Shown here piece after piece: positions 8,549 to 32,350 of a stretch of 64,000 bases of DNA. The DNA is from an uncultured Phycisphaerales bacterium (GTDB taxonomy: Bacteria; Planctomycetota; Phycisphaerae; Phycisphaerales; UBA1924), in contig CAXBAF010000007.1 in the NCBI GenBank assembly GCA_963973795.1, positions 27,200 to 91,199 of the forward strand, in the 5' to 3' direction. Numbering within the stretch: the first letter of the stretch is position 1; each line of letters opens with the position of its first letter. The translations under genes and the position numbers were made by a program. A model generated the notes under the pieces. The model was not told where the DNA came from, made no database searches, and saw nothing but the letters and a program-made list of their open reading frames with translations.

Positions 8549-8935
8549 TCAGCCGCACGCGGCGCACACGCCGTAGAGCGTGATCTCGTGCCCGGTGAGC
8601 CTGAATCCCTTGGGGAGGAGCGGCTTGAGGTTGCCCGGGCATCCCTCGATATCGAACGTCTTGCCGCACACTTCGCAGTGGAAGTGGTGGTGGTGCTTGA
8701 GGCCCGCGGACTCGTAAAGCGCGGGCTGGCCTGGCAGTTCGACCTTGATGATCTCGCCCTCTTCGAGCAGGGCGTTGATGTTGCGATAGACCGTCGCGAG
8801 GGAGATCGAGGGGACGTCGGTACGGCTGATCTCGAGGAGTTCCTGAGGCCCGAGGGGCCTGTCGGATCGTTCGATCGCATCGCGGATCGCGGTCCGCTGC
8901 CGGGTGTTGCGTGGTTGCTGGTTCTGCTCGCTCAC
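8549..8935 (-). CDS. Fur-family metalloregulator (Fur, Zur or PerR type not resolved)
   Basis: The C-terminal 128 codons of track ORF 8549..9703 read RNTRQRTAIRDAIE...LATVYRNINALLEEG...HHHHFHCEVCG...GVCAAC, a winged helix plus two CxxC pairs. GTG 8935 is an in-frame start. The upstream part of the track ORF is Pro/Arg-rich and antisense to the next gene. Confidence 0.8.
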   Translation of the reverse strand: MSEQNQQPRNTRQRTAIRDAIERSDRPLGPQELLEISRTDVPSISLATVYRNINALLEEGEIIKVELPGQPALYESAGLKHHHHFHCEVCGKTFDIEGCPGNLKPLLPKGFRLTGHEITLYGVCAACG

Positions 8936-9075
8936 GGGGGATCTTGGGGGGCGGACGCTGGAAGTCAACCTCGGTCGGACTTGAGGGGGGAGACCGAGCG
9001 GGGCGGTGGGCTCGGCGAATCGGTAGACTCGGGGGCGTGCGACGCGGCTAAACGAGACGGCCGCGGGCCTTCGGC

Positions 9076-11103
9076 ATGGCTTTGTTCGTGCATCGAGACT
9101 CGGCGTGCGGATGGGGAGGCGTTGCGGTGGACGGACTGACGAGACGCGTGCCCTCTGGGTATACGGCGGTGGATCTCTTCCCGGCGGCACCGGCGGGGGG
9201 AGGGGTTCAGCCGTTGCGGGTGTGTGTGCTGGTGCGCAACGAGCCGCAGCCTGTGGGAGGGCGGCTGGTCGTGGTGCGGGATGTATTCGATGCGTCCGTC
9301 TACCTCGGCTGTGTATTGGACGCCTCGGGTGCGGTGGATTCGTGGGTCGAGGTCTGGGTTCAGCGGGTGGACACGCTGGACGCCTCGGCGGGGGGCGGAC
9401 ACGGGACGCTGAGCAACGCCTCGCTCGAGGCCCGCTGGGCGCGGACCGTCGATGGCCTTGCGGCGACGGCGCCGGACATGCTGATCCGAACCGGGTACGA
9501 GACACAGAACCCGACCCCGATCGCTTTGGACGCGGTGAAGGGCGGGGCGCGGACGCCCATGCACGAGGCGACGGGCGCGGACTGGTCGGTGTGCAGGGAC
9601 GAGGATGTGCTCGCGTCGAAAGGGCTGGCGTCGTACCGGTCGTCGCTGGCGCGGCACCTCTGGATCGAGCAGTTGGGAGAGGGGTCGCCGTTCGTTGACG
9701 CATCGGATGTGTCGGCGGTCGGTTCGGCGTTGTTAACCGGCGTGAACCGAGATCTGGTCCCGTTCAACCTGGGCGGGGGCTTGATGATGGTCCGGCGGCT
9801 GGCGCCGATCGGGTATGCCGAGCAGGTGGGCGTGGTCGGCGGGCTGTCGTGGAGCGGCGTACGGCACGGCATCGAGGCGATCGATCTCCGGGCGGGGCAC
9901 GAGATGGTGACCCGGGTGAGCGGGTTCGCGGGTGATCCGGAGCCGATCGATCCGGACCGTCTGTTCCTGGGGCGTCACGGGCGATGGGGGCGGCTCGTTG
10001 AGTCGCTGCATCTGAAATTGAAGATGGTCGCCGAGGCGGTGGGGGCTGTGCGTTCTTCCTCAGAGCGCACGGGGCGACCTCTGCTCAACCTGACGGATGA
10101 GAGTTTTCGTGTCGAGTTATGGGAGGGCGGGATCGGCCTGCCCCGGTTGTGGACGAGCCGGGTCCGTCTTGTTGATCCGGGTTCCGCGTTCGAGATGTCG
10201 ATCGAGGGGCTGCGGGCACGCGGGTTTGTGAGCCCCGACGGCATCGGGCGCGGCGTCTATCGACCCGAACTCGGCGGCGAGGCGACCGGCGGACGGTGTG
10301 ACTTCCGGATTCGGTCCATCGATGAGAGTGATCCGAGCGGTGCGGTGGTCGAAGCTACGTTCCGGACTGACGCGCGGGTGTCCGGCGGCGGGAGCGAGTT
10401 GCTCGAGTTGCGGGTGCCGGCGGAGGGCGAGCGGCTGTTGTTGTATGGGCGGGTGCGGGCCGAGGAGGCGCTGGGGCCCGGGGAGCTGCGGTTCCGCGGC
10501 TTGCCGGTGCCCCTGGATGGGCGGATGGGTGAACTGATTCGCGCGGCCGAGGGTGTTCCGTTGCGAGATGTTTCGTTTGAGGTCGTGCCGCTCGCGTCGA
10601 CGCCCTGCGACCTGCACGCGCTTGGGGTTCTGGGTGTGCGCACGCTGCTGGTCGATGGGGGTAACACGCTGCCGGTCGCGTTGGACGAGCTCGTCAGTCT
10701 TGCTCGGGTCGCGTCTGAGGGGCTGAAGGACGGGCTCGCGCTCGAGGATGCCTTTGAGCGGGCGTTCTTCTCCGATGTGAGGTGGGGAGATTCGCTCGGA
10801 CCGCAGCGGCTGGTGAACGAGGCGATCGTTCCGGCTCAGGCGGCGGACCTGATCCCTCCGGAGATCTGGATGCGGGTGCTGGCGCTTCTGAGCCGGATGC
10901 TGCTGGGGATCGAAGGTGTTTCGATGTGCCGAGACGCCGGGGACACGCGTGGATTGCACCCGCATCTGGTGTTCGACGGAGCTGCGGAGGGTCTGGCGTC
11001 GCTGCTGGTGCGGACGCGGAGCCTGATGGTGGTGGACTGGCGGCACAACCGTGAGGTTCACTCGGTGCTGCGGCGGTATCGCGAGGGGATGGCGTCGGCG
11101 TGA
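9076..11103 (+). CDS. Hypothetical 675-aa protein with no signal peptide; first gene of the plus-strand T6SS-containing block
   Basis: A long ORF with an ATG start and coding-like composition, divergent from the Fur-family gene. No family was recognised by eye. Confidence 0.7.
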   Translation: MALFVHRDSACGWGGVAVDGLTRRVPSGYTAVDLFPAAPAGGGVQPLRVCVLVRNEPQPVGGRLVVVRDVFDASVYLGCVLDASGAVDSWVEVWVQRVDTLDASAGGGHGTLSNASLEARWARTVDGLAATAPDMLIRTGYETQNPTPIALDAVKGGARTPMHEATGADWSVCRDEDVLASKGLASYRSSLARHLWIEQLGEGSPFVDASDVSAVGSALLTGVNRDLVPFNLGGGLMMVRRLAPIGYAEQVGVVGGLSWSGVRHGIEAIDLRAGHEMVTRVSGFAGDPEPIDPDRLFLGRHGRWGRLVESLHLKLKMVAEAVGAVRSSSERTGRPLLNLTDESFRVELWEGGIGLPRLWTSRVRLVDPGSAFEMSIEGLRARGFVSPDGIGRGVYRPELGGEATGGRCDFRIRSIDESDPSGAVVEATFRTDARVSGGGSELLELRVPAEGERLLLYGRVRAEEALGPGELRFRGLPVPLDGRMGELIRAAEGVPLRDVSFEVVPLASTPCDLHALGVLGVRTLLVDGGNTLPVALDELVSLARVASEGLKDGLALEDAFERAFFSDVRWGDSLGPQRLVNEAIVPAQAADLIPPEIWMRVLALLSRMLLGIEGVSMCRDAGDTRGLHPHLVFDGAAEGLASLLVRTRSLMVVDWRHNREVHSVLRRYREGMASA

Positions 11104-11231: not shown

Positions 11232-11759
11232 ATGGCTCGCACAAAGGTTTCGACGCGTATCGGTATGGTCCTGCTCGCGGTGTTCGGTGTTGTCGCGGTC
11301 GGCTGCGGCGGGACGTCGTTCAAGAAGTTTGACGTTAATGTGTCGCTCGACGGGTCGATGCCGGCTGGCGAGTCCGTGACGGTGGACCTCATTGCGCTCG
11401 GCGGCGATCGGGCCGAAGAACTCGACGGGATGCCGATGCGGAAGTATTGGACGCTCAATGACCCGTACCGCTCGAGTCTTCTTGCGGAAGGCGTGCTGTG
11501 GACGGCGGAACTCGACGCGTCGAACCCCGAGGCGACGCTCAAGTCAACCAACAAGATCTGGAACTCGCCGATCTGGAAGTCGGGCGGGAAACTGTTCGTT
11601 CTCGCGAAACTCCGGGGCGTCGGGCCTGGTCCGAACGGTGACCCGAGGCGGCGGACCATCAATCGCGACGCATCGCTCTGGACGCAGAAGCGGATTGATG
11701 TCACGGTGCGGCAGGACGGGATCTCGTACTCGCCGACCGAGAAATCCGTCGGTCAGTGA
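11232..11759 (+). CDS. Lipoprotein (175 aa); candidate divergent TssJ
   Basis: ATG 11232, preceded by GGAACGGAAG, gives MARTKVSTRIGMVLLAVFGVVAVGCGG (lipobox). Size and a beta-rich pattern (VTVDLIAL, KLFVLAKL) are compatible with TssJ. The TssJ assignment rests on context only. Confidence 0.65.
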   Translation: MARTKVSTRIGMVLLAVFGVVAVGCGGTSFKKFDVNVSLDGSMPAGESVTVDLIALGGDRAEELDGMPMRKYWTLNDPYRSSLLAEGVLWTAELDASNPEATLKSTNKIWNSPIWKSGGKLFVLAKLRGVGPGPNGDPRRRTINRDASLWTQKRIDVTVRQDGISYSPTEKSVGQ

Positions 11760-11779: not shown

Positions 11780-14700
11780 TTGTTTGATGTGTCGGATCGA
11801 TCGCGAGAGACCCGCGTCGGCCTGCGTGGCTCGCGTGGGTTGTGTGGAAGGGGTGCGTGCGTGCCGTTGATTGCGGGCAAGCGTGCGGATTCGATCGGCG
11901 GGCACGCGATTGAGCGTCCTGTCGCGGTCGGGGTGCGCGAGAGCACTTGGCTCGCCTACGACCGGACCGGTGATCCCTGTGTCATCGAGGTCTGGGAGCG
12001 GTTCGACGACGGGCCGGTCGCGGGAGCGGATCTCGACGCGTTTGTTGAGCGTGCGGCGCTTCAGCGGCGGGTCGCGGCTGCAGGCGGCAACGCGGAGCGG
12101 ATACTCGGTGGCGGACACGTCGTTGGCGTACGCACGCTCGAAGCGACGGACTTTGGAGCGTTCTACACGCGCGATCGGTACGGGGTTTCGGCGGCGGAGT
12201 TGGCGGCCGGCAAGGTCCGGCTGCGTGGGGATGCGCTGCACGAGATCATGTCGGGCGTGGTCGGCGGGCTGCAGATTTTCCGTGAGCGGGCGGGTCGGCC
12301 GCACGGGGGGCTTGACGCATCCGCGGTTTTGATCTCCGATGGCGCGCCGGGAAAGCGTCGCGTCGGGCTCCGGGCGCCGGCAACCGCTGGCGAGTTGGCG
12401 GAAATCGGTGATCCCGACGGCGACGAGTTGCGGCGGATCGGTCTGCTGATCTTCGAGTTGGTGCAGCATCGCCCGTTTCGCGCGATGGGTGGGTACCCGG
12501 TCCGTGATGGGTCGGAATGGCAGGGGCTTGGGAAGTCCGGTGGGTTCTGGCTCGGGCTCGTCAATGAATTGCTTGCGCCCTCGGGCTGCAGGCTGACGCT
12601 TGGCGAGGTCGCGTCACGGATCGCGGGGCTGCGGTTCCGGGTGGACAAGCCGGGCGCAGGGGTCTGGCTCGGGCGGGCGGGGATCGCGGCGGCGGTGCTC
12701 GGGCTGGTTGGCGGCGGTGTGTGGTTCGGGCTGCGTCCGAGCGAAGAAGCACCCAGGGCGGATTACCGGGACTCGGAGTTCGAACAGTGGCTCCGCACGG
12801 TGCCTGTTGTGGTGTCGCTACGTGAGCGGGTTGGGGCGATGCCCGACGCGCCGGCGGTTCTGCGCGAGGCGGTCGGGCGGCTTGATCCTGAGTCGACGCC
12901 GCGGGGTGGTGTGGACGATTACTTTGATATCCCGAGTCTGTTTGAGGAAGCGGAGCTGTATCGGGTGTTTCGAGCGAGGCTCGACGGCCCGTTGCCTCAA
13001 CTCGTGGAGAGTGTTCAACAGTTTGCACAGAAAGATTTCGAGGCGAGGGCGGAGACGCAGGAAGAATCCGAGGATCAGAAGCGGCTCGAGCGGCTGGCGT
13101 TCCTGTTCCGGAAGGGGCTTGCCCGCTTCGGCGTCGAGACAGAATCGGAGCAGGTCGCGGACGCCGGGGGTGTCCAGGACGAGACCGGCGAGACGGCCGG
13201 GGGCGGTTCGTCTGATCCTGTCGACGAGGCGACCCTGAGCCTGCTTGACTCGTTCTCTCACGACAATTGGGCGTCGCATGGGATGATCGCGGGGTTGGTT
13301 GAGGGGGACGGGGTTGCCTGGTTCCGGCCTTCCGCAGCGAGTCTCTTTTCTTCACAGCTGGATGAGATCCGCGACGGACTTTCGGTGCTCGCCGACGGCG
13401 CGACGGACTTCGATGGGGCGACGGCGCACAGGCCTGTTGTCGGTGCGGTCGAGGAGACGGTTGGGCGCTTTGTCGGGGCGGTCGAATCTGTCGAGCGCAC
13501 CGCGGGCGTGATCGGTGTGTGGCGTGACGGGCTGTATCCGCGGATTGAATCCGGGAGTTCGGTCATCGCGGCGGCGTCGGCATGGCCTGATGTCCCCGCG
13601 TCGGTTGCGGATGATCTTCCGGATGGCGGCGATCCGTACCTCGCGTCGTTTGAGTCATTCGCGGAGCGGGTCGGCGTCGTTGGCGATGGCGAGACGGATG
13701 AAGACCTCGGTCGGCGTCTGGAGGCTGCGGCGGCCGCGGTGGACGCGGTACGGGCGGTTATCGAGCGAGGGTGGGATGCGGGGTCCGTGGATCTTCTGGC
13801 TCACGCGGCGTGGGTGGAATCGGCTCGGGATCGGATCGCGGAGAGGCCTGCTGCGAGCGACGGTGACGAGTTGGCGGTGTGGATCGATGCCCGGATCGCA
13901 TTGAGCGAGGAATGGCTGGAAAGCGTGGCGTCGGCGACGCCGGTTGCAGCGGACAGCGATTGGCCGGCTGCCGATTTTGCGAGTGAACTCGCGGCGACGC
14001 GTGATTTGTGGCGAGAGGCGATGCGTGACGCGCGGCAGGACACCCTGGAGGCGGAGGCAGAGATCGCGGGCGGGGTCGGGGTGATCGCGCCGGCGCTCGA
14101 TGCGGTCGAGGAGCGGCTGCGTGAGGTCCGGCGGCAGCCGCGGTGGCGGAGTCTTCGCGATGAGGTCGATTCCGAGTCGCGTGGGTTGGAGCGAGACTTT
14201 GCATCGCTGGCGACGATGATCGAGCGGATTCACGCGCAGGTGCTGCAGCCTCCGCGGGATCTGATCGCGTTTTGGCGGGAGAACCCGATCCGCGTGGAGG
14301 GGTTCGACGGCGCGGAGGAGCTGGCGCTTGCGGGCGGGGCGATTGTTGAGCGGTACGCCGTTGAATGGGAACGCTGGGCGGCGGGTGAGGGTCTTGATGA
14401 TGAGGCGTTGAAGCGGGCTCCGCAGACGGACCGTCTTCGGACGGCGCTGCGAGGTGTCGATGAGGTCGTGAGGGCGGCGGCCGAGGATGTCCTGGGTGTG
14501 CTGGGCGAGGCACGGGCGTACGGCCGGTTCGACGGGGACGCGGTGGAGGGTGCGGTCGGGCGTTGGCTTGCCGGGCGATTCGCCGAGGCGGTGTTGTCGT
14601 TCGAGGGGTGGAGTGACAAGTCTCGACTCGGTGACGACGGTGTGTTCGCGACGCGGCTCGGTTCTCTCGCAGACGAAGCGGGGAGCACGCTCGACGCGCT

Positions 14701-16693
14701 CGCGGCGGATCTTGGGACGCTTTCAGAATCGTCGGGGCTTGTGGCGCGCGGGTACGGCGTCGGTGACCGCGTCGATGGATTCGCGGTGGGTGATCGCGTT
14801 GAACTCGCGTCGTTGGCGGATCGGCTTCGATCGCCCGATGTTCCGTCGGTCGCGGATATCGATGAGATAGATCAGGCGGTTCTGGCGGTTGAGGGGTTGG
14901 TTGAGATTTCACGGGTCGATGACCCCAGCTTGCTGATGGATGCGTTTGTCGCCGAGTGCGGTTCGGCGGGGCGGGCCGGGATCGGTGTTCAGGCGATCCG
15001 ACGGCTCGATTCGATCGGCCGGGACGCGGGCGCGTGGCCGAGTTCGATCGATGTGATGTTGCGAGACCGCGACGGCCTCGCGGACGGGATCTCGGCGCTG
15101 CGGGGCACGGTCCCGGCGGGTGACTTTGAGAAGATTGGTGAGGCGCTCCGCGGGATCGTCCGGGCCTGGTGGCTGCGCGGGGTGGCCGAGGCAGACGATC
15201 GCGGTGACTTTGCGCGGGGTGTGAGCGGCGCGTCGTCGTGGTTCGACGGGGTTGGCGACGGCTGGGTCGGGGTGCTTGGTTCGGAATTGCTGACGGGGCG
15301 GGCTCGGTACAACGCGGCGCTCGTGGGGCTGCGGGCCGAGATCGACGAGTTGGGTAGAAAGGCGATGGTGCAGGCGTCGTCATCGGATTCGAGTGCGATC
15401 CCGGGGATCGATGCTCGGCTGCTGTCTGATGTGCGTGCCAAACTCGGTGAGATCAACCGGCTTGCGCAGCAGACGCTCGACGACGGGGAGCGGGCTCGGG
15501 CGTTGATGTGGGTGCGGGGGTTTGAGCGTGAGCTCAACGACGCACAGGGCGGGCGGCGCGGCTGGGATGAGGCCGGTGTTGGCCCAGTCGGCGCAGGGCT
15601 GGCGAACTGGTCGGCGACGCTGGACGAAAACGTGGAGCCGCCGCGGGTGGTGTATTCGTATTCCCCACCGCAGGCGTCGGACGCGGTGTCGATTGAGTTC
15701 AGGCTGGTCTCTGATTTGCCCAGCGGTGGGCAGGTGTTTCTCGGTGCCGATGAGGTGTCGGTGGCTGTGTTCGGAGCCATGCTTCGCGGAACCGCTGAGA
15801 AGCTTGAGGACCGTTTGGCGGGTTCGATGTACGAGGATGTGGACGGCCGGCTCGAGGGGAACATGGTTGAGGGCCCCTCGACGCGAGAGTTGTTTGCTCG
15901 GCGTGGCGGTCGGTCGCGGTTCCGGGTCCGCTCGCGGGAGCTGTGGCTGGATTCCGAAGACGGGCGCTACGGCCCGCCGGAGCGGAAGGCTTCATTCCCG
16001 TCATACCCGGATGGGTTACGAGGTGCAGACCCGAAATCGATCGCGCCGTCTCAGGGCGAGCCGGACGAGGCCCACCCGGTGAACTACGTGAACTCCGCGG
16101 TGGCGTTCGACCTCGCGGAGGCGTTCGGCTGTCGGCTTCCGACGATCGAGGAGTTTCAGGCCGCGATGTCGGCTCCCGGCGTTCCCTCGGTCCGGAGCGG
16201 GCGATGGAACCTGCGCGATGCGACGTTCGGGCGGCAGGTCGAGCACTTCAAATCGGCGTTCGAGATGGAAGTAACGACGCATTATCAGCCGGGCAAGTGG
16301 TCGTACGACGGGACGAACGGCGCGAGTTCCGCGGACTGGGGTCTGGCGGGTGATGACGACCGACTCTGGTTCTATCGGACGGGCGCGGGCGTGGAGAATG
16401 GGTTTCAGAACGGTGTGCTGTTCCGGCACCTGATCGGGAACGTCGCGGAGTATGTGATCGTCGATGAGGGTGCGCGGGACAGCCGGGGCGTGCGCATTCT
16501 GGGCGCGTCGGCGCTGTCCGACCCGACCGTGTCCCCGGGTGATGTGCGGGAGGTCGATGGGGCGCGGAATGGCTACGTGGACGTGGGCTTCCGCCTCGCG
16601 ATCGACGCGGACGACTTCGGGAGCCTCGGCAAGCTGGTCCGTCGACAGATCGCGGAGTCCGACGATTCGTTCTTCGTTGCGGGGGGCGGCTGA
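11780..16693 (+). CDS. Giant bitopic protein: N-terminal degenerate Ser/Thr-kinase-like (pseudokinase) domain, one TM helix, a helical ectodomain of about 1000 aa and a C-terminal FGE-sulfatase (SUMF1)-fold domain; PpkA-position gene
   Basis: The kinase-like region spans about aa 40-285. It reads CVIEVW where VAIK is expected, PHGGLDASAVLI where HRDLKPxN is expected, and has no DFG (RRVGLRAPA), but keeps DELRRIGLLIFELVQHRPF. The TM helix is WLGRAGIAAAVLGLVGGGVWFGL (nt about 12659-12733). The C-terminus (nt about 15685-16620) reads IEFRLV...GCRLPTIEEFQAA...WNLRD...FRHLIGNVAEYV...GYVDVGFRLA. The TTG 11780 start is uncertain. Confidence 0.8.
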   Translation: MFDVSDRSRETRVGLRGSRGLCGRGACVPLIAGKRADSIGGHAIERPVAVGVRESTWLAYDRTGDPCVIEVWERFDDGPVAGADLDAFVERAALQRRVAAAGGNAERILGGGHVVGVRTLEATDFGAFYTRDRYGVSAAELAAGKVRLRGDALHEIMSGVVGGLQIFRERAGRPHGGLDASAVLISDGAPGKRRVGLRAPATAGELAEIGDPDGDELRRIGLLIFELVQHRPFRAMGGYPVRDGSEWQGLGKSGGFWLGLVNELLAPSGCRLTLGEVASRIAGLRFRVDKPGAGVWLGRAGIAAAVLGLVGGGVWFGLRPSEEAPRADYRDSEFEQWLRTVPVVVSLRERVGAMPDAPAVLREAVGRLDPESTPRGGVDDYFDIPSLFEEAELYRVFRARLDGPLPQLVESVQQFAQKDFEARAETQEESEDQKRLERLAFLFRKGLARFGVETESEQVADAGGVQDETGETAGGGSSDPVDEATLSLLDSFSHDNWASHGMIAGLVEGDGVAWFRPSAASLFSSQLDEIRDGLSVLADGATDFDGATAHRPVVGAVEETVGRFVGAVESVERTAGVIGVWRDGLYPRIESGSSVIAAASAWPDVPASVADDLPDGGDPYLASFESFAERVGVVGDGETDEDLGRRLEAAAAAVDAVRAVIERGWDAGSVDLLAHAAWVESARDRIAERPAASDGDELAVWIDARIALSEEWLESVASATPVAADSDWPAADFASELAATRDLWREAMRDARQDTLEAEAEIAGGVGVIAPALDAVEERLREVRRQPRWRSLRDEVDSESRGLERDFASLATMIERIHAQVLQPPRDLIAFWRENPIRVEGFDGAEELALAGGAIVERYAVEWERWAAGEGLDDEALKRAPQTDRLRTALRGVDEVVRAAAEDVLGVLGEARAYGRFDGDAVEGAVGRWLAGRFAEAVLSFEGWSDKSRLGDDGVFATRLGSLADEAGSTLDALAADLGTLSESSGLVARGYGVGDRVDGFAVGDRVELASLADRLRSPDVPSVADIDEIDQAVLAVEGLVEISRVDDPSLLMDAFVAECGSAGRAGIGVQAIRRLDSIGRDAGAWPSSIDVMLRDRDGLADGISALRGTVPAGDFEKIGEALRGIVRAWWLRGVAEADDRGDFARGVSGASSWFDGVGDGWVGVLGSELLTGRARYNAALVGLRAEIDELGRKAMVQASSSDSSAIPGIDARLLSDVRAKLGEINRLAQQTLDDGERARALMWVRGFERELNDAQGGRRGWDEAGVGPVGAGLANWSATLDENVEPPRVVYSYSPPQASDAVSIEFRLVSDLPSGGQVFLGADEVSVAVFGAMLRGTAEKLEDRLAGSMYEDVDGRLEGNMVEGPSTRELFARRGGRSRFRVRSRELWLDSEDGRYGPPERKASFPSYPDGLRGADPKSIAPSQGEPDEAHPVNYVNSAVAFDLAEAFGCRLPTIEEFQAAMSAPGVPSVRSGRWNLRDATFGRQVEHFKSAFEMEVTTHYQPGKWSYDGTNGASSADWGLAGDDDRLWFYRTGAGVENGFQNGVLFRHLIGNVAEYVIVDEGARDSRGVRILGASALSDPTVSPGDVREVDGARNGYVDVGFRLAIDADDFGSLGKLVRRQIAESDDSFFVAGGG

Positions 16694-17210: not shown

Positions 17211-18176
17211 GTGGCGTTGGACGCCGCGTGGGTCCGCAGGAGTCGTGGGATGAGTGGCATGGGCGGAGAAACCTGGCGATCGCTCGCGGAACTGACCGCG
17301 AACCGGCTTCGGCTGATCCAGGCGGATCTTGCCGATGAGTCCGCGGAGTCGCGGCGGGCTCATCTGGATGACGAGGTGCGGGCGGCTCTGGAGAAGGTGC
17401 CCAATGCTGAGCGGAACGATTTTCTGGAACTCATCGAGGATCGATTCCCGGCATGGGAGGGGGGGCGCGTTGTGAGCGGAGCGTCTGAGGGCACGCTGGT
17501 CTCGGCGACCGACATGGCGGAATTCAACGATCCGGCGTTTCTGCTTCGGCAGCTCATGAAGGCCGCTGAGCAGATGACCCCCGAGCAACGCCGGGAGGCC
17601 GGCGAGCGTCTTGCATCGGTGGGCATCGCGCCCTCGGGTGTGGGCGAGATCCCGGTCGAGTCGCTCGCGAAGGCAAAGGCTTCGATGCAGGCGCCAGCGG
17701 ATGCTGACGTGGATGCGGGCCGGGTGCTCGAGGCGTCGGCGCTGCTGGCGGATCAGGTTCTTCTGTTGGACACGCTTGTATGGAAGATCTGGCGACAGAT
17801 CGCGCCGGATTCGCAGCACCGGAGCCGGACGCAGCTCGGCGCAACGATGTCGTCGTACCTGACGGGGAGCGGTGAGACCGGGCGGGGCGAGGTTGCGGAG
17901 AGTCTCGAGCGGTTCCGCCAGCTGACCGCGGCGCTCGTGAGTTCGATCGGCAAGGTTGGGAGCACGGCGTTCACGCAGCTGAGCCAGCTGAACCCCAACA
18001 ACATCGAGACGATGGCGAAGGACGAGAAGAAGTGGAACGAGAGCCTGGAGCTCGCGGCGTGGCGGAAGTATCGCGAGCTCGCGGGCAAGATGGATCAGGC
18101 GACGGTTGAGAACGAGATGATGCGCGCGGTGTCGCGTACGGTTGAGGACATCATCCGCCCGCGCGGGCGTTCGTGA
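17211..18176 (+). CDS. Hypothetical cytoplasmic protein at the fha/tagH position upstream of tssK; no FHA domain visible
   Basis: The ORF lies directly upstream of tssK with a 52-nt gap and is helical and acidic. The C-terminal half (FTQLSQLNPNNIETMAK..KW..LAAWRKYRELAG) is reminiscent of the non-FHA C-terminal region of TagH/Fha-type proteins, recalled from memory only. The start codon is uncertain, with several in-frame Met codons. Confidence 0.6.
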   Translation: MALDAAWVRRSRGMSGMGGETWRSLAELTANRLRLIQADLADESAESRRAHLDDEVRAALEKVPNAERNDFLELIEDRFPAWEGGRVVSGASEGTLVSATDMAEFNDPAFLLRQLMKAAEQMTPEQRREAGERLASVGIAPSGVGEIPVESLAKAKASMQAPADADVDAGRVLEASALLADQVLLLDTLVWKIWRQIAPDSQHRSRTQLGATMSSYLTGSGETGRGEVAESLERFRQLTAALVSSIGKVGSTAFTQLSQLNPNNIETMAKDEKKWNESLELAAWRKYRELAGKMDQATVENEMMRAVSRTVEDIIRPRGRS

Positions 18177-18228: not shown

Positions 18229-19593
18229 ATGTCGGTCGAGGTGCACTGGCATGAGGGCCTTTTTCTTCAGCCGCACCACCTGCAGGCGTTCGGCCGGCAG
18301 GTGTGGGATCGCTCAAGGCGAGACCGGCGGCTCGGCTGGGGCTATCCCTACGGCGTTGTCGAGAGCAGGCTGAGCACGGACGAACTCGCGAACATGCGGG
18401 TTCGTTTCGATCGGCTGCGTGCGGTGATGCCCAGCGGGATCGAGGTCGATTGTCCCGGCAACTGCGACCTGCCCTCCCTGGATATCTCGGAGCGGTTCGG
18501 CTCGAGCACGGCCTCGTTCACGGTGAGCCTGGGTGTGCCGCTCTGGCAGAAGGAGCGAGCGAACTCGCTCGAGATCGGTGAGAGCGACTGGCGCGTCAAG
18601 CGGCTGTACCGCGTCGAGGAGCGCGAGAGCCCCGACGAGAACACCGGCGAGAACCCTCAGGGCATGCTGGTGCGGAAGGTCAACGCTCGGCTTCTGATGG
18701 ATGGGGACGACACGACGGACATGGAGATCGTGCCCCTCGTGCGGATCGGGCACGCCGCGGGTGAGGACATCGGTTCGCCTCGGCTTGAGCGGACCTTCGT
18801 GCCGCCCTGCATGCTGCTGAGCGGGTCGAGCGTGCTCCGTGAGATGATGCGCGGTATCGCGAACGACGTGGAGGCCGCGCGGGGCGAGACGGTTGTGCAG
18901 ATGACGCGGGGCGGGTTCAACATCGAGCAGATGCGTGGAGTGCACGTTCAGCAGATGATCAGGCTTCAGACGCTGAACAACTACGCCGCTCGGCTCATGC
19001 ACATGGTGCGGGCCGAGGGTGGGGTGAGCCCGTTTGACATGTATCTCGAGCTTCGGGGGCTGCTGGGCGGGCTTGCGTCGCTCCAGCCAGATCGTGATGC
19101 GTGGGACGCGCCGGACTATGACCATGACGACCCGGGACGGGTCTTCGAGGTGGTCTGCGACCGGATCCGTGCACAGCTGCGGAGCGAGGGCACGGCGAGC
19201 TGGGCTCGGGTGCGGTTCGAGCTCAAGGACGGCCTGCTGGTTGCGGAGCTCTCGGGCGAGCAGTTGACGAATCCGAACGAGTACTTCTTGGGTGTCCAGA
19301 CCGGCCGCGACCCGCGTGAGGTGGCGAAGATGGTCGAGGATCAGGGCGAGTTCAAGCTGACGGCGCTGAGCAAAGCGACGACACGTGTGCGTGGCGTGCA
19401 CCTTGCTGAAGAGCGGCACCCGCCGCTCGAGCTCCCGGCCCAGATAGGGCTGCACTACTTCCGTGTGGATCGGAGCCAGAGCACGCGGGTTTGGGGTCTG
19501 ATCGAGGAAGAGAAGATGCTGGCGATTAATTTTCCGGGCGTCGAGCGTAACGAGTTCGATGATGTTTCGCTGTACATGACGATCCCCGACTGA
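18229..19593 (+). CDS. tssK: T6SS baseplate protein TssK (ImpJ/VasE)
   Basis: The N-terminus VHWHEGLFLQPHHLQ is the TssK signature. Length is 454 aa, and the gene precedes tssL and tssM. Confidence 0.9.
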   Translation: MSVEVHWHEGLFLQPHHLQAFGRQVWDRSRRDRRLGWGYPYGVVESRLSTDELANMRVRFDRLRAVMPSGIEVDCPGNCDLPSLDISERFGSSTASFTVSLGVPLWQKERANSLEIGESDWRVKRLYRVEERESPDENTGENPQGMLVRKVNARLLMDGDDTTDMEIVPLVRIGHAAGEDIGSPRLERTFVPPCMLLSGSSVLREMMRGIANDVEAARGETVVQMTRGGFNIEQMRGVHVQQMIRLQTLNNYAARLMHMVRAEGGVSPFDMYLELRGLLGGLASLQPDRDAWDAPDYDHDDPGRVFEVVCDRIRAQLRSEGTASWARVRFELKDGLLVAELSGEQLTNPNEYFLGVQTGRDPREVAKMVEDQGEFKLTALSKATTRVRGVHLAEERHPPLELPAQIGLHYFRVDRSQSTRVWGLIEEEKMLAINFPGVERNEFDDVSLYMTIPD

Positions 19594-19612
19594 ATCGGCG
19601 GTTCGGTGTCTC

Positions 19613-20356
19613 GTGCGCGGGGCGTGCCCCGGACGCGGGCTGGAGCGATGGATGAAGCTTCTAGCGGTCTGTGAAGAGATTTTTCAGTATGCGTGCCGGC
19701 TGAATCGGTCGGCACGGAAGGGGGCTCCTTTGGAGCCCGCGATGGTGCGCTCGGACATCAAGACCGTTCTGTCGCGGGTGCGGTCGAAAGCGGGTGGTGA
19801 TCCGCTGCTCGCCCAGCAGTACGACCGGGTTGAGCGCCCGCTGATCTACTTCATTGACTTCATGATCGAGGAGAGCGAACTCCCGTTTGCGAGCGAGTGG
19901 AAGGCGAACCGCCTGCAGAACGAGTACTACAGCGTCAACGACGGCGACGAGCACTTCTTCGACATGCTCGACGAGACGCTGCGGGACAACAGCCGGGAGG
20001 CGACGGATCGGCTGAGCGTGTTCTACACGTGTCTCGGCCTGGGATTCACCGGTTTCTACGCGGGGCAGCCTGAGTATCTGCGTCGCAAGATGATGGAGAT
20101 GAACGCTCGTCTTCGGGATGTGATGGAGACCGAAGCGGGGGCGAGGATCGTTCCCGAGGCGTACGAGTACACGGACTCGACCGACCTGATCCAGCCTCCG
20201 ACGCGGAGCCTGGTGAGCCTGGTCATTGTGATGTTCGTTGTGCTGGTCTCGCTGATCGGCACCAGCGTCTATCTGTACTTGGAGCAGTCCGCGGAGATGC
20301 GGCGGGCGTTCGAGGCGATCGACGAGGTGGTCAAGAGCGATGTGTCCGATGGGTAA
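19613..20356 (+). CDS. tssL: T6SS membrane complex protein TssL (DotU family)
   Basis: Motifs RPLIYFIDFMIEES and DRLSVFYTCLGLGFTGFY are present, with a single C-terminal TM helix LVSLVIVMFVVLVSLIGTSVYLYL. The start may be ATG 19652 rather than GTG 19613. Confidence 0.88.
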   Translation: MRGACPGRGLERWMKLLAVCEEIFQYACRLNRSARKGAPLEPAMVRSDIKTVLSRVRSKAGGDPLLAQQYDRVERPLIYFIDFMIEESELPFASEWKANRLQNEYYSVNDGDEHFFDMLDETLRDNSREATDRLSVFYTCLGLGFTGFYAGQPEYLRRKMMEMNARLRDVMETEAGARIVPEAYEYTDSTDLIQPPTRSLVSLVIVMFVVLVSLIGTSVYLYLEQSAEMRRAFEAIDEVVKSDVSDG

Positions 20357-20419
20357 CGACCGGTGCGATCTCGCCGCCGCCGCTGAGGGCCGCGGGGTGA
20401 TCGCCGGAGGCGGAGTCTG

Positions 20420-23400
20420 ATGCAAGCATTGATCTCAAAGTTCATGGCGCTCCCGATCCCCGGCAAGGCCGTGATCGGAATGGTCATGGCGGGCGGCATC
20501 TTCGGTGTCTGCCATCTTCTCGGGATGAACGAGCTTGGGTACTTCCTCGGGATCGCGATGGCGGTCGTGACGGTGGTGCTTGCGCTCTTCGGTCTCGTGA
20601 TGGAGAAACGCGACAAGAAGAAGGCCGAGAACGTCGAGGCGAACATCGCGGACAGCGCCGCGGCGACGCCGTCGGGTGTCAGCAAGGTTGCGGACCGTGC
20701 GAAGCTCGACGATCTGCGTCGTCAGTTCGAGTCTGGAGTCCAGACTTTCCGTGACTACGGCAAGAACCTCTATGACATGCCCTGGTATGTCGTGGTGGGC
20801 GAGCCGGGATCGGGCAAGACCGAGGCGATCCGTCACAGCGGCATCGGCTTCCCGCCGGGGCTCCAGGACCAGCTCCAGGGCACGGGCGGCACCGTCAACA
20901 TGAACTGGTGGTTCACCGATCAGTCGGTGATCATCGACACGGCGGGCCGTCTGATGTTCGAGGACGTTGCACCCGGGGATAACAACGAGTGGAAGGAGTT
21001 CCTGAAACTCCTGCGGACGAGCCGGCCGAACTGCCCGATCAACGGGATGCTGCTGGTGATCCCTGCCGACACGCTGATTACTGATAAGCCGGACGAGATC
21101 GAGAAGAAGGCGGGCAAGATCGCCCAGCAGTTCGACCAGATCCAGCGTTCTCTTGGTGTGCGTTTCCCGGTGTTTGTGCTGATCACGAAGGCCGACCTCG
21201 TCAACGGGTTCCGCGAGTTCTTCGATGACATCACCGATCCGCGGTTGACGGCGCAGATGCTCGGGTGGTCGAACCCGGCGGACCTCGATGAGCCGTTCAA
21301 GCCTGATCGTGTAGAGGAGCACCTCGACAGCCTGCGGCAGCACCTGCTTCAGCGTCGGTTCGCGATGCTGCAGGACCCGATCCATAGCGAGGATCCGAAG
21401 GGACGTCGGATCGACCAGGTCGATGCGCTCTACAAGTTTCCCGAGGCGGTGACTGAGCTTGGCCCGCGGCTTCGGCGGTATCTCGAGATGATTTTCGTCG
21501 CCGGCGAATGGAGCCAGAAGCCTCTGTTCCTGCGCGGGATCTACTTCACGAGCTCGATGCGGGAAGGCGATGCGCTGGATGCGGATCTGGCGGAGGTTCT
21601 CGGCGTCGGGGTTTCGTCGCTGGCGGAGGGCAAGCTTTGGGAGCGGGAGCGGAGCTACTTCCTTCGGGACCTGTTCCTCGACAAGGTTTTCAAGGAGCGT
21701 GGGCTCGTCACGCGTGCGGCGAACGCGGGGCAGGTGAAGCGCAAGCGGGCCATGCTGATCTCGGGGGCGGCGGCGGTGGCTTCGCTTCTGCTCGGTGCGA
21801 TGATTTGGTACAGCTACTCGCAGACCAAGGCGCAGATCCAGAATCCTCGTGATTTCTGGGTCGAGGTGCGGGGCGCGGTCGAGGAGGTGGCGAGCACGGC
21901 GGAGGGGAACGATGATCTGTCGCAGGCCGAGGCGTTGCGGCAGTATCTCAGCCCGCTGACCGTTCGGTACTCCGATGCGAGTGTCCGGGATCTGATTATC
22001 GCGCAGCCGTTGGAGAGCGAGGACGCGGCGGTCCGCTTGGGCGGGGTGAAGCTGACGTACCTTGAGGTTTTTGAGCGGGCGAGAAAATACTACGAGGAGA
22101 ACAGTTCTTCGAGTGGTCTGTTCGCGCTGATCGCGGCGCTCCCCGGCGGCGGCAACGATATTTTCAAACGCCAGTTGCCGGCTCAGCGGGGACTGTTCGA
22201 GCAGCTCGTACTCGTCCGCGCCATCGAACTGGCGCGCGGAGACATCATCGACGGCGGCGCGAATCGCTCAACGCCGATCGGCTGGGGTGATGGTGCGCTG
22301 GGATCGAAGGCGCTCGCCGCGATGATCGCGCTCGAGGCCGATGGGACGATGGGGAACGGCGAGCCGCTCCCCGCGGAAACGATCGACGAGCTCGTGCGAT
22401 TCGCGGTGGCGGCGGAGGGTCCGGACGCCGTCGATGCCGACGCGATGACTCGGCTTCGGGAGTACGCCTCTTGGTTGTATTCAGGGGACTCTTCGTGGCC
22501 GCCGGAGACGCTCCCGGTTGGCACTGAATCCGCGAACGCAGCGGTGGAACGCGGTATCGAGGCGTTCAATCGGTTCTGGCGTAATCCATCCGGTGAAGGC
22601 ACGCTGTTTGGTGCGTTGAAGACACTCGAGGCCGCGGGCGGTTCGCTCACCGCTGCGGAAGAAACCCTGGCGGGTGCGTCGCGTGAGTTGGGTGCGGCGG
22701 CGACTGAGGCCGCGTTCGATGAGAAGAAGGGAGCCTGGCTATCTGCCTACGACCGGTATCGCGCGTCGTATGACGCGTTCTCGACCGCACTGGGCGAGAT
22801 CCCGGAGCAGTACGTGCGGAGCGATTTCGGCTCGGCGGCGTTGCCTGAGGAGGCTCGGCTCGCGGTGTGGGACAGCGCGAGCTCGGCGTACGACGAACTC
22901 ATCGGGCGATTCGGTGACGAGACCCGGCGCGAGAAGCTCGATCCGGAGAATGAGCGTGAGGCCTGGTTGATCGATCAGCGTGAGGCCTTGGTCGCGGCGC
23001 GGAACACCGCGGAGAATGCGTACCGGTCGACGGCTGAGCAGCTCGTTGGCTCGATCCGGGACCGGATCCTGCCTCGGCATCTCGCGCAGCGGGGTCTGGA
23101 CAGGGTCTTTACTGTTCGTTCCAACCTCTTCGCCCAGGCGCACGGGGCGCTGACCCAGGAACGAGTGAGGACAGGGGATTCGCTGCGGGCGGAGCTCGAT
23201 TCGATCAAGTCAGCGCCGGATTCGCAGGTCGTGCCTGCCACAGGCGAGGATCTGGCGTCTGCGGCCCAGTCGGCACGGCTGGTGCACGAGGCTGCGGCAA
23301 GGTCAGCTCGGTATGCGGCGATGCGTGACGACCTTGAAAGGTTGCGCGATTGGGAACAACTGCTGACACGGGAGTCGGCCGATCCGTTACCGATGATTCC

Positions 23401-29478: not shown

Positions 29479-29567
29479 GTTGCTTTGTGTGCGGCTGTGA
29501 CGGCCGGTGCGGGTAGTTTGTGCTAACATATGCGTGGGTGATTTTCCACCACGAGCGGGGTTTTGTC

Positions 29568-32252: not shown

Positions 32253-32350
32253 GTTGCTTGTTTCTGTTGTAGACTGGACTTACGAGCGCCCCGGGAAGGG
32301 AATCGCTCCTTTGCTTCGCGTCAACACCGATAAGAATTGAGGGCCTCGAG

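What the first reader, a model, noticed from the sequence alone, without database searches (positions are those of the whole stretch)
11780..16693. PpkA-position gene encodes an apparent pseudokinase joined by one TM helix to a giant ectodomain
The N-terminal ~285 aa align by eye to the Hanks kinase fold, but every catalytic landmark is replaced. CVIEVW (nt 11978-11995) stands where VAIK is expected, so the beta3 Lys is Glu. PHGGLDASAVLI (nt about 12299-12334) stands where HRDLKPxN is expected, so the catalytic Asp and Asn are lost. RRVGLRAPA stands where DFG is expected. The alphaF-type DELRRIGLLIFELVQHRPF is retained. In HSI-I, PpkA is an active kinase with a periplasmic VWA domain that phosphorylates Fha1. 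This protein keeps the topology (cytoplasmic kinase fold, a single TM helix at nt about 12659-12733, a large periplasmic part) but probably signals by scaffolding or allostery rather than phosphotransfer.
Basis: partly seen in the sequence, partly recalled or inferred. Interest (0 to 1): 0.75.

Follow-up and report, generated by a model that had tools for sequence, protein, structure and literature searches.

The report
Dead-kinase membrane protein in T6SS cluster
A giant membrane protein in a type VI secretion gene cluster of a marine Phycisphaerae bacterium carries a well-conserved but catalytically dead protein-kinase domain, and it belongs to a large, unannotated family that probably controls or anchors the secretion machine by binding rather than by phosphorylation.

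Summary
The ORF at 11780-16693 (+) is real, with a probable start at GTG 11861 (1610 aa).

Pfam and NCBIfam find no kinase. An AlphaFold model of the N-terminal 280 aa (pLDDT 85, pTM 0.87) nevertheless matches about 1,900 PDB protein kinases. A family profile hits StkP, PknA and PknB at E 1e-10 to 1e-7.

All catalytic positions are replaced:
- beta3 Lys is Glu43.
- HRD Asp is Gly150.
- The catalytic-loop Asn is Ala155.
- The DFG Asp is Ala172.

No Lys or Asp is invariant among the orthologues, yet this domain is the best-conserved part of the protein.

One TM helix follows, then about 1,320 acidic residues. The protein ends in an FGE/SUMF1-like domain that lacks both catalytic cysteines.

The family has at least 681 clusters (50% identity) in Planctomycetota and Verrucomicrobiota. 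Most members read K / HGN / N / D-P-A. The window's clade is more degenerate still.

The gene lies in a conserved block: 660-aa unknown, lipoprotein, this gene, 306-aa unknown, TssK, TssL, TssM, TagF fusion. The TagF fusion shares the C-terminal 545 aa with this protein. No FHA, PP2C or active kinase was found in the ORFs scanned. The function is inferred, not shown.

The parts
11861..16693 (+). Probable CDS of the pseudokinase-TM-ectodomain protein (1610 aa). The mechanical ORF begins at TTG 11780.
   Evidence: ORF list. Identical database protein P0001 of 1610 aa and orthologue N-termini. GGAAGGGG lies 6 nt upstream of GTG 11861.
11888..12655 (+). Cytoplasmic kinase-fold (pseudokinase) domain, aa ~10-265.
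   Evidence: AF2 pLDDT 85 / pTM 0.87. Foldseek hits to Mps1, Rv3910 pseudokinase, PknI, PknB and ULK2 at E 5e-9 to 1e-7. Profile hits to StkP, PknA and PknB. It is the most conserved segment among 12 orthologues.
11987..11989 (+). Glu43 at the beta3 (VAIK) lysine position.
   Evidence: In the family alignment column, 83 of 159 sequences have K and 17 have E. E is invariant in the window's clade. The profile alignment places fvvKvl on vaVKVL of StkP.
12296..12325 (+). Catalytic-loop equivalent RPHGGLDASA (aa 146-155). The HRD Asp is Gly150, the loop Lys is Asp152 and the loop Asn is Ala155.
   Evidence: Aligned to ivHRDLKPqNILL of StkP and RAD53. Column counts: pos150 N 101 / D 17 / G 8; pos152 K 108; pos155 N 131 / A 11.
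12374..12382 (+). DFG-equivalent triplet A172-P173-A174.
   Evidence: The family column has D at 172 in 127 of 159 sequences, followed by P then A/L. Strand beta8 is at aa 168-170 in the model, which gives the canonical beta8+1 spacing. This mapping is an inference from those two results.
12659..12733 (+). Single transmembrane helix (aa 267-291).
   Evidence: Kyte-Doolittle scan: one segment at aa 273-291 in P0001. A single segment at aa ~250-300 is found in nearly all family members.
12734..14971 (+). Poorly conserved, acidic, Ala/Gly/Asp/Arg/Glu-rich extracytoplasmic region.
   Evidence: Conservation is 0.33-0.50 against 0.64-0.79 for the kinase-fold domain. Net charge of aa 295-1270 is -82. 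No Pfam or NCBIfam hit.
14972..16603 (+). C-terminal ~545-aa module shared with the TagF-fusion paralogue.
   Evidence: BLASTP of the two window proteins: 29% identity, E 3e-20. It covers aa 1065-1608 of the 1637-aa ORF and aa 1020-1505 of the paralogue.
15656..16690 (+). FGE/SUMF1-like (PF03781) domain without the catalytic cysteine pair.
   Evidence: Pfam is weak in this protein (E 0.0043-0.065) but reaches 1e-10 in family members. Profile A7 against PDB FGEs gives 3e-9. FGE 'GGSYLCHDSYCNRYR' aligns to 'GgSALSdpevapdk'.
24883..29478 (+). Paralogous bitopic protein (1531 aa): TagF-fold cytoplasmic domain (24883-25932), TM (25969-26034), long ectodomain, FGE-like C-terminus.
   Evidence: AF2 pLDDT 89 / pTM 0.90. 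Foldseek top hit is TagF of A. baylyi 9t0n at E 1.1e-8, followed by P. aeruginosa TagF 2qnu/6iz8. Invariant G21 K22 ... D28 and S93-x-D95-x3-R99 match the conserved TagF residues listed in PMC5995506. Pfam FGE-sulfatase E 5e-6.
9076..11103 (+). Conserved unknown 675-aa protein ('X660'), always upstream of the lipoprotein gene and the pseudokinase gene.
   Evidence: Synteny in L001, L002, L004, L005 and 24 of 45 genome loci. No Pfam, NCBIfam or PDB profile hit.
11232..11759 (+). Small predicted lipoprotein (MARTKV...LAVFGVVAVGC), a possible TssJ analogue.
   Evidence: A lipobox-like signal peptide is visible in the sequence. Its position is conserved. There is no Pfam TssJ hit, so TssJ identity is not shown.
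17211..18176 (+). Conserved unknown 321-aa protein ('X306') between the pseudokinase gene and tssK.
   Evidence: Synteny. No family or PDB hit. Unrelated to the TagF-like domain.
18229..24829 (+). tssK (18229-19593), tssL (19613-20356) and tssM (20420-24829).
   Evidence: Pfam T6SS_VasE 4e-60 and DotU 1.7e-26. IcmF-related_N 6e-58.

Best explanation
The gene encodes a bitopic inner-membrane accessory protein of a PVC-type type VI secretion system.

Anatomy:
- The N-terminal ~265 aa form a Hanks-type protein-kinase fold in the cytoplasm. It cannot catalyse phosphotransfer because the beta3 Lys, HRD Asp, catalytic-loop Lys and Asn, DFG Asp and the Gly-rich loop are all lost. It is under strong purifying selection, so it is a true pseudokinase.
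- One TM helix links it to ~1,320 extracytoplasmic residues.
- These end in a non-catalytic FGE/SUMF1-like (C-type-lectin-like) module, presumably a binding domain.

Most likely mechanism:
- The pseudokinase acts as a protein-protein interaction head that docks on cytoplasmic parts of the membrane complex or baseplate (TssL/TssM/TssK, or the conserved unknown neighbours).
- This couples the state of the envelope, read by the C-terminal module, to T6SS assembly without phosphorylation.
- It probably works alongside the paralogous TagF-TM-FGE-like protein encoded after tssM, which carries the same periplasmic module on the known T6SS brake domain.

What is shown: the fold, the loss of catalytic residues, the conservation, the single hydrophobic segment, the domain content, the family size, the synteny, and the TagF fold of the paralogue.

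What is inferred: N-in/C-out topology, binding partners, sensing, and the direction of regulation.
For: Kinase fold: AF2 pLDDT 85 / pTM 0.87; about 1,900 PDB kinase matches, including the Rv3910 pseudokinase domain; profile E 5.6e-10 to StkP.

Dead active site:
- Column mapping gives E43, G150, D152, A155 and A172.
- No invariant Lys or Asp exists among 10 orthologues at 40-71% identity to the window sequence.
- No Pfam Pkinase hit, even at E<=1.

Selection: the kinase-fold domain is the most conserved segment (0.64-0.79), against 0.33-0.50 for most of the ectodomain.

Architecture: kinase-like domain, one TM, long ectodomain and FGE-like end are conserved in a family of at least 681 50%-identity clusters.

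T6SS linkage:
- The same gene order, X660-lipoprotein-this gene-X306-TssK-TssL-TssM, occurs in the window, in L001, L002, L004 and L005, and in 18 of 37 genome loci.
- The window holds TssA, B, C, E, F, G, K, L, M, Hcp, ClpV and TagJ.

Paralogue: a TagF fold with invariant TagF loop residues, fused to a TM helix and to the same C-terminal 545-aa module.

No FHA, PP2C or active kinase was found in the window ORFs that were scanned.

FGE-like domain: it lacks both catalytic Cys.
Against: - No experiment and no interaction data exist. Partners and the direction of regulation are guesses.
- The trio X660-lipoprotein-pseudokinase also occurs without T6SS genes within 10 kb in Tepidisphaera sp. (L034). 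By tblastn, 19 of 37 genome loci show no adjacent TssK/L/M. The module may therefore not be strictly T6SS-dedicated, or the search may have missed divergent genes.
- Topology rests on hydropathy and the absence of a signal peptide only.
- The long ectodomain is poorly conserved. That fits a spacer or anchor as well as it fits a sensor.
- The catalytic-position mapping comes from profile alignments and model secondary structure, not from a residue-level structural superposition.
Confidence: 0.6

Rival explanations
1. The protein is a structural subunit or envelope anchor of the T6SS membrane complex rather than a signal transducer. The pseudokinase would be a fixed scaffold in the cytoplasmic face, as YukC/EssB is in the type VIIb system. 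The huge periplasmic part with its lectin-like end would tether the machine to peptidoglycan or the outer layers of the PVC envelope.
For: - The gene lies among membrane-complex and baseplate genes (lipoprotein, TssK, TssL, TssM) in many genomes.
- No recognisable TssJ (PF12790) or peptidoglycan-binding Tag protein was found in the window.
- The long, acidic, weakly conserved ectodomain looks like a spacer.
- There is precedent for a membrane pseudokinase as the central assembly subunit of a secretion system (bioRxiv 10.1101/2020.05.09.085852).
Against: - A paralogue with the same periplasmic module carries TagF, a regulatory domain. That suggests the module feeds regulators.
- The trio can lie away from T6SS genes.
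- Nothing tested here separates anchoring from sensing.
Confidence: 0.25
2. The pseudokinase domain is a phospho-acceptor docking platform. An active Hanks kinase encoded elsewhere phosphorylates it, and a phospho-binding protein is then recruited. This is how the Rv3910 (MviN) pseudokinase works: it is phosphorylated by PknB and then binds the FHA protein FhaA.
For: - Rv3910 kinase-homology domain structures (3uqc, 3otv; 3oun with FhaA) are among the best fold matches, with the highest sequence identity in the list (17-18%).
- T6SSs elsewhere use FHA-phosphothreonine recognition (PMC3953482).
Against: - No FHA-domain protein, kinase or PP2C phosphatase is detectable in the window ORFs scanned or in the conserved gene block.
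- No conserved Thr/Ser site was identified.
Confidence: 0.08
3. The domain is an atypical but active kinase, or another nucleotide-dependent enzyme, that uses non-canonical residues in the way WNK or CASK do.
For: - The wider family keeps Lys, Asn and the DFG-type Asp in most members.
- Three representatives have HGD with all other residues intact. Some relatives may therefore bind nucleotide or even be active.
Against: - In the window's clade the Lys, Asn and DFG Asp are all replaced.
- The Gly-rich loop is degenerate.
- No Lys or Asp is invariant anywhere in the domain.
- The window protein itself also lacks the HRD Asp (G150).
Confidence: 0.04
4. The ORF is a decaying remnant of a PpkA-like kinase gene (a pseudogene) or a spurious long ORF in GC-rich DNA.
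For: High-GC DNA gives many long spurious ORFs on other frames in this window.
Against: - An identical 1610-aa protein is found on 3 contigs.
- Full-length orthologues occur down to 29% identity.
- The kinase-fold domain is the best-conserved part.
- The AF2 model is confident.
- There are hundreds of family members with the same architecture.
Confidence: 0.01

Closest known systems
PpkA (T6SS threonine-phosphorylation-pathway kinase of Pseudomonas aeruginosa H1-T6SS, Agrobacterium and Serratia)
   Same: It is encoded in a T6SS cluster. It is a bitopic protein with a cytoplasmic Hanks-type kinase fold, one TM helix and a periplasmic domain. It sits in a cluster that also encodes TagF.
   Different: - PpkA is catalytically active, has a periplasmic VWA domain, and works with the PP2C phosphatase PppA and an FHA protein (PMC3953482, PMC5995506, and my own knowledge).
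- Here all catalytic residues are lost, and the outside part is ~1,320 aa ending in an FGE-like domain.
- No PppA or Fha is detectable.
- The gene order differs: this gene lies between a lipoprotein gene and tssK.
- No specific sequence relationship to PpkA was tested.
YukC/EssB, the membrane pseudokinase of the type VIIb secretion system (Bacillus, Staphylococcus)
   Same: It has a cytoplasmic pseudokinase domain, a single TM helix and an extracellular domain. It acts by protein-protein interaction as a central assembly subunit of a secretion machine (bioRxiv 10.1101/2020.05.09.085852).
   Different: - It belongs to a different secretion system and phylum.
- YukC is ~450 aa with a small extracellular domain.
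- No YukC/EssB hit was seen in Pfam or among the top 50 fold matches.
- It is an analogy, not family membership.
Rv3910 (MviN/MurJ) intracellular kinase-homology domain of Mycobacterium tuberculosis
   Same: It is a bacterial pseudokinase domain attached to a membrane protein. It is among the best structural matches (3uqc, 3otv, 3oun; E 7e-9 to 6e-8; 17-18% identity).
   Different: - Rv3910 is fused to a polytopic flippase-like protein, is phosphorylated by PknB and recruits the FHA protein FhaA. No such partners are seen here.
- Identity is only 17-18%.
Formylglycine-generating enzyme / SUMF1 / EgtB family (PF03781)
   Same: The C-terminal ~300 aa match FGE profiles and structures. Databases name family members 'SUMF1/EgtB/PvdO family nonheme iron enzyme'.
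   Different: Both catalytic cysteines of FGE are missing in the aligned segment. The database name describes only the last fifth of the protein and misses the kinase fold altogether.
TagF (T6SS post-translational repressor / assembly checkpoint) and TagF fusions such as TagF-PppA of Agrobacterium
   Same: This applies to the paralogue at 24883-29478. It has the TagF fold and conserved TagF loop residues, and it lies directly after tssM as in H1-T6SS.
   Different: - Known TagF proteins are soluble or recruited to the membrane by a partner (TagZ; bioRxiv 10.64898/2025.12.08.692957).
- This one is covalently fused to a TM helix and to a ~1,150-aa ectodomain that shares its C-terminal module with the pseudokinase protein.
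- No Pfam TagF hit was found.

Membership tests
Eukaryotic-like (Hanks-type) protein kinase superfamily, fold level | Bilobal kinase fold: N-lobe beta sheet plus alphaC, C-lobe alphaE/alphaF/alphaG. | tested here: met
   AF2 model pLDDT 85 / pTM 0.87 with the expected order of strands and helices. About 1,900 PDB kinase matches with TM 0.5-0.7. Family profile E 5.6e-10 to StkP.
Active Ser/Thr protein kinase (Pfam PF00069 Pkinase) | Score above the Pfam gathering threshold. | tested here: not met
   No Pkinase or PK_Tyr_Ser-Thr hit at E<=1 for this protein. One relative gave PK_Tyr_Ser-Thr at E 0.042, below threshold.
Active Ser/Thr protein kinase (Pfam PF00069 Pkinase) | beta3 lysine (VAIK). 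| tested here: not met
   Glu43, invariant in the clade.
Active Ser/Thr protein kinase (Pfam PF00069 Pkinase) | Catalytic loop HRDxKxxN: Asp base, Lys, Asn. | tested here: not met
   H148-G149-G150-L-D152-A-S-A155.
Active Ser/Thr protein kinase (Pfam PF00069 Pkinase) | DFG aspartate. | tested here: not met
   A172-P173-A174 at the column where 127 of 159 family members have Asp. The position relative to beta8 comes from the model.
Active Ser/Thr protein kinase (Pfam PF00069 Pkinase) | Glycine-rich loop GxGxxG. | tested here: not met
   The window has V-A-V-G-V-R-E-S-T-W. Only one Gly is kept.
Pseudokinase (operational class) | Kinase fold, loss of catalytic residues, and evidence of selection on the domain. 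| tested here: met
   The domain is the most conserved part of the protein among 12 orthologues.
Pseudokinase (operational class) | Absence of phosphotransfer activity and of nucleotide binding. | not testable with these tools
   Needs purified protein.
PpkA / threonine phosphorylation pathway of T6SS | Partner PP2C phosphatase (PppA) and FHA-domain protein (Fha) in the cluster. | tested here: not met
   No PP2C or FHA Pfam hit in the large ORFs that were scanned. None in the precomputed Pfam annotation of orthologous loci.
PpkA / threonine phosphorylation pathway of T6SS | Periplasmic VWA domain. | tested here: not met
   The only ectodomain hit is FGE-sulfatase.
FGE/SUMF1 (PF03781) | FGE-like fold recognisable by profile. 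| tested here: met
   Profile A7 against PDB FGEs gives E 3e-9. Pfam reaches E 1e-10 in relatives. The window protein alone is below threshold (E 0.0043).
FGE/SUMF1 (PF03781) | Catalytic cysteine pair (copper site). | tested here: not met
   LCHDSYC of FGE aligns to LSdpeva.
TagF (for the paralogue 24883-29478) | TagF fold and the conserved GK...D and SxDxxxR loops. | tested here: met
   Foldseek 9t0n at E 1.1e-8, plus 2qnu and 6iz8. Invariant G21, K22, D28, S93, D95, R99 compared with the residues listed in PMC5995506.
TagF (for the paralogue 24883-29478) | Pfam TagF model hit. | tested here: not met
   No hit even at E<=10.
YukC/EssB (T7SSb pseudokinase) | Sequence or fold match to YukC/EssB specifically. 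| tested here: not met
   No Pfam hit. Not among the top 50 fold matches.

The most novel reading that the evidence does not exclude
PVC bacteria may have replaced the kinase/phosphatase/FHA relay of proteobacterial T6SSs with a phosphorylation-free two-receptor switch.

Two paralogous envelope-spanning proteins would read the same periplasmic cue through a shared FGE-like module. They would deliver opposite outputs in the cytoplasm. One is a TagF brake. The other is a dead-kinase scaffold that licenses membrane-complex or baseplate assembly, possibly together with the conserved unknown proteins X660 and X306.
Probability: 0.2. Interest if true: 0.8.

Novelty: new variant of a known kind. Interest (0 to 1): 0.6.

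Why it matters
Post-translational control of T6SS firing is understood almost only in Proteobacteria, through PpkA/PppA/Fha and TagF.

This finding adds several things:
- A widespread gene family in Planctomycetota and Verrucomicrobiota (at least 681 clusters at 50% identity). It is unannotated, or misnamed 'SUMF1/EgtB/PvdO family nonheme iron enzyme'.
- In that family a kinase fold has been kept while catalysis was lost stepwise. HRD became HGN in most members, and all landmarks are lost in this clade.
- The protein is paired with a membrane-fused TagF that carries the same periplasmic module.

This gives a concrete, testable example of a bacterial membrane pseudokinase tied to a contractile secretion system. 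It also provides a natural series for asking what a kinase fold does once it stops being an enzyme, and it corrects the database annotation. No paper describing it was found.

Tried and rejected
- Pfam and NCBIfam scans of the whole protein found no kinase.
- phmmer of the N-terminal 307 aa against PDB found nothing.
- A word-indexed homologue search with the N-terminus alone found nothing. Orthologues were reached only with the full-length query.
- The clade-only profile (A1) against PDB gave only sub-significant kinase hits (E 0.37-2.5). A broader profile (A2) was needed.
- The TagF identity of the paralogue could not be shown by sequence. It was shown only by structure prediction and fold search.
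- X660 and X306 gave no Pfam, NCBIfam or PDB-profile hits. X306 is unrelated to the TagF-like domain.
- I tested whether X660 contains a second degenerate kinase-like core. hhalign picks the RPHGNL...LTDP segment both times, but at E 0.05-0.23 and probability <=1%. It is not supported.
- The search for related loci with the diverse alignment A2 failed for lack of a conserved stretch. A five-sequence HGN subset worked.
- The pseudogene or spurious-ORF reading is rejected on conservation.
Full report
**What is there.**

The window is high-GC DNA (about 66%) from a marine Phycisphaerae-type planctomycete. The identical protein sits in a cluster with a TARA Oceans surface-water sequence, and named relatives are all Phycisphaerae or Phycisphaeraceae MAGs.

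The ORF 11780-16693 (+) is real. The database copy (P0001, 100% identical, 1610 aa) and all orthologues begin at MPLIAG/MGGIAG. This corresponds to GTG 11861, which has a GGAAGGGG Shine-Dalgarno-like run just upstream.

**Is the N-terminus a kinase fold?**

Family libraries do not see it:
- There is no Pfam kinase hit even at E<=1.
- There is nothing in NCBIfam.
- There is nothing by phmmer against PDB.

I collected 11 full-length orthologues at 29-100% identity and aligned their cytoplasmic domains (A1).
- An AlphaFold2 model built on that alignment is confident: pLDDT 85, pTM 0.87. It has the secondary-structure order of a protein kinase.
- Foldseek against the PDB returns about 1,900 chains at E<=1e-3. 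Every one of the 50 listed is a protein kinase or pseudokinase.
- The leading hits are Mps1/TTK, the Rv3910 (MviN) kinase-homology domain, PknI, PknB and ULK2, with E from 5e-9 and probability 1.00.

An exhaustive profile search with A1 found 867 proteins (50%-identity representatives) at E<=1e-3 and 681 at E<=1e-10. A 26-sequence profile of diverse members (A2) hits solved bacterial Hanks kinases by sequence alone: StkP 5.6e-10, PknA 8e-8, then PknI, PknE and PknB. The fold assignment therefore rests on two independent lines.

**Are the catalytic residues gone?**

The profile alignments place family 'fvvKvl' on 'vaVKVL' and 'RpHGnLkpsNvLl' on 'ivHRDLKPqNILL'. Column counts over 159 family sequences give the following.

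| Position | Canonical residue | Wider family | Window protein |
|---|---|---|---|
| 43 (beta3) | Lys | Lys in 83 | Glu, invariant in the clade |
| 150 (HRD) | Asp | Asn in 101, Asp in 17 | Gly |
| 152 (catalytic loop) | Lys | Lys in 108 | Asp |
| 155 (catalytic loop) | Asn | Asn in 131 | Ala |
| 172 (DFG, one residue after beta8) | Asp | Asp in 127, as D-P-A/L | A-P-A |

The Gly-rich loop is VAVGVRESTW. Among the ten aligned orthologues no Lys and no Asp is invariant anywhere in the domain.

The typical family member is thus a 'K / HGN / K / N / D-P-A' kinase-like protein. It lacks only the catalytic base, rather as HER3 does (my own knowledge). A few members keep HGD with everything else intact. 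The window's clade has lost all landmarks.

The domain is not decaying. It is the best-conserved part of the protein, with top-residue frequency 0.64-0.79 and a peak at aa 201-240 (GYPVR...FWLGLVNELL). Most of the ectodomain scores 0.33-0.50.

**The rest of the protein.**

A single hydrophobic segment (aa 267-291) follows. It is conserved in position across the family.

With no signal peptide and a cytoplasmic-type fold at the N-terminus, N-in/C-out is the sensible topology. This is an inference.

The next ~980 aa are acidic (net charge -82), rich in Ala, Gly, Asp, Arg and Glu, and match nothing.

The last ~330 aa are an FGE/SUMF1-like domain:
- The Pfam hit is weak in this protein (E 0.0043 to 0.065).
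- It is clear in relatives, down to E 1e-10.
- A profile gives E 3e-9 to solved FGEs.
- In that alignment the FGE catalytic cysteines (LCHDSYC) face LSdpeva, so it is not an FGE enzyme.

Public records call family members 'hypothetical protein' or 'SUMF1/EgtB/PvdO family nonheme iron enzyme'. The kinase fold is unannotated.

**Surroundings.**

The window carries a T6SS cluster:
- TssK, TssL and TssM immediately downstream
- TssA, TssB, TssC, Hcp, TagJ/ImpE, TssE, TssF, TssG and ClpV further on
- a TpsB/TpsA two-partner secretion pair inserted in the middle

The local order is: Fur (minus strand), X660 (675 aa, unknown), a small lipoprotein, the pseudokinase gene, X306 (321 aa, unknown), tssK, tssL, tssM, and a 1531-aa protein.

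This order recurs in distant relatives from Phycisphaerae MAGs (L001, L002, L004, L005). It also recurs in 18 of 37 genome loci with enough downstream DNA. The family spans Phycisphaerales, Tepidisphaerales, Sedimentisphaerales, 'Planctomycetaceae' MAGs, Opitutaceae, Verrucomicrobiia and Chthoniobacterales.

In Tepidisphaera sp. CP051526 the trio X660-lipoprotein-pseudokinase stands without T6SS genes within 10 kb. The trio is therefore the tightest unit, and its link to T6SS is frequent rather than universal. Some of the negatives may be misses by tblastn.

**The paralogue.**

The 1531-aa protein after tssM shares its last ~545 aa with the pseudokinase protein (29% identity, E 3e-20). That stretch includes the FGE-like domain.

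Its N-terminal 350 aa match nothing by sequence. They do have more than 300 homologues, mostly stand-alone ~320-aa proteins of Planctomycetota.

An AF2 model (pLDDT 89, pTM 0.90) matches TagF of Acinetobacter baylyi (9t0n, E 1.1e-8) and TagF of P. aeruginosa (2qnu, 6iz8).

The invariant G21-K22...D28 and S93-x-D95-x3-R99 reproduce the G8-K9...D15 and S79-D81-R85 loops. Lin et al. showed these loops to be needed for TagF function (PMC5995506).

The cluster therefore encodes two bitopic proteins with the same periplasmic end. One has a TagF head and the other a dead-kinase head. No FHA, PP2C or active kinase gene was found in the ORFs scanned in the window or in the annotated orthologous loci.

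**How it most likely works.**

*Shown:* a conserved, catalytically stripped kinase fold; one membrane-spanning segment; a long outside part ending in a non-catalytic lectin-like FGE fold; conserved placement next to T6SS membrane-complex genes; and a TagF-headed paralogue.

*Inferred:* the kinase fold serves as a cytoplasmic interaction surface that contacts TssL, TssM, TssK or the unknown neighbours. It would couple what the periplasmic module binds to T6SS assembly, in concert with or in opposition to the membrane-fused TagF.

I give this 0.6. The rivals are:

| Rival | Basis | Confidence |
|---|---|---|
| Structural or anchoring role | By analogy with YukC/EssB of T7SSb; the data do not separate it from sensing | 0.25 |
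| Phospho-acceptor platform like Rv3910/FhaA | No FHA partner is visible | 0.08 |
| Atypical active kinase | Conceivable for HGD/HGN relatives, not for this clade | 0.04 |
| Pseudogene | Excluded by conservation | 0.01 |

**Comparison and novelty.**

The protein resembles PpkA in being a T6SS-cluster bitopic protein with a kinase fold inside and a domain outside. It fails every PpkA membership feature tested: catalysis, VWA domain, PppA and Fha partners, and gene position.

It resembles YukC/EssB and Rv3910 in being a membrane-tethered bacterial pseudokinase, but it belongs to neither family.

Five literature searches found no description of a T6SS-linked pseudokinase, of this family, or of TM-fused TagF proteins with FGE-like ends. 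The 2025 TagF preprint describes TagF in contexts lacking Fha and the threonine phosphorylation pathway, with membrane recruitment by a separate protein, TagZ. That is conceptually close to the covalent membrane fusion seen here.

I rate the finding a new variant of a known kind and moderately to clearly interesting. The anatomy is solid, and the mechanism is still inference.

Noticed in passing
window 24883-29478: A 1531-aa protein directly after tssM is a TagF-fold domain fused to a TM helix, a long ectodomain and an FGE-like C-terminus. No sequence library recognises the TagF part. The domain has more than 300 homologues in Planctomycetota, mostly stand-alone ~320-aa proteins.
   Followed up: yes
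window 9076-11103 (X660) and 17211-18176 (X306): Two conserved proteins of unknown function flank the pseudokinase gene in nearly all related T6SS loci. They have no Pfam, NCBIfam or PDB-profile match. X660 aa ~316-368 (...GRPLLNLTDESFRVEL...RVRLVDP) is repeatedly aligned by hhalign to the family's RPHGNLKPSNVL...RVxLTDP segment, but not significantly (E 0.05-0.23).
   Followed up: partly
window 29520-40594: A two-partner secretion pair lies inside the T6SS cluster between the TagF fusion and tssA. It consists of a ShlB/FhaC-type TpsB of 910 aa and a 2747-aa TpsA with a TPS domain. L003 (Phycisphaeraceae) also has a ShlB gene just after its T6SS membrane genes.
   Followed up: no
window 11232-11759: A small predicted lipoprotein (signal peptide ending LAVFGVVAVGC) always precedes the pseudokinase gene. 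It sits where TssJ would be expected but has no Pfam TssJ/SciN hit. No other TssJ candidate was seen in the window.
   Followed up: partly
L034 (Tepidisphaera sp. CP051526, 7293-14350): The trio X660 - small protein - pseudokinase giant occurs with no T6SS genes within 10 kb. An ABC transporter lies upstream and a T2SS-type ATPase on the opposite strand downstream. About half of the genome loci show no adjacent TssK/L/M by tblastn.
   Followed up: partly
window 8549-9703 (-): A Fur-family regulator gene is divergently oriented just upstream of X660. Its mechanical ORF carries a long Pro/Arg-rich N-terminal extension that is probably not translated. Fur is at the same place in L001 and L002, which hints at metal-dependent transcriptional control of this T6SS block.
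   Followed up: no
window 1-30000: GC skew is strongly positive (0.1-0.28) over the first ~30 kb, where nearly all genes are on the + strand. It falls to about zero or slightly negative beyond ~34 kb.
   Followed up: no
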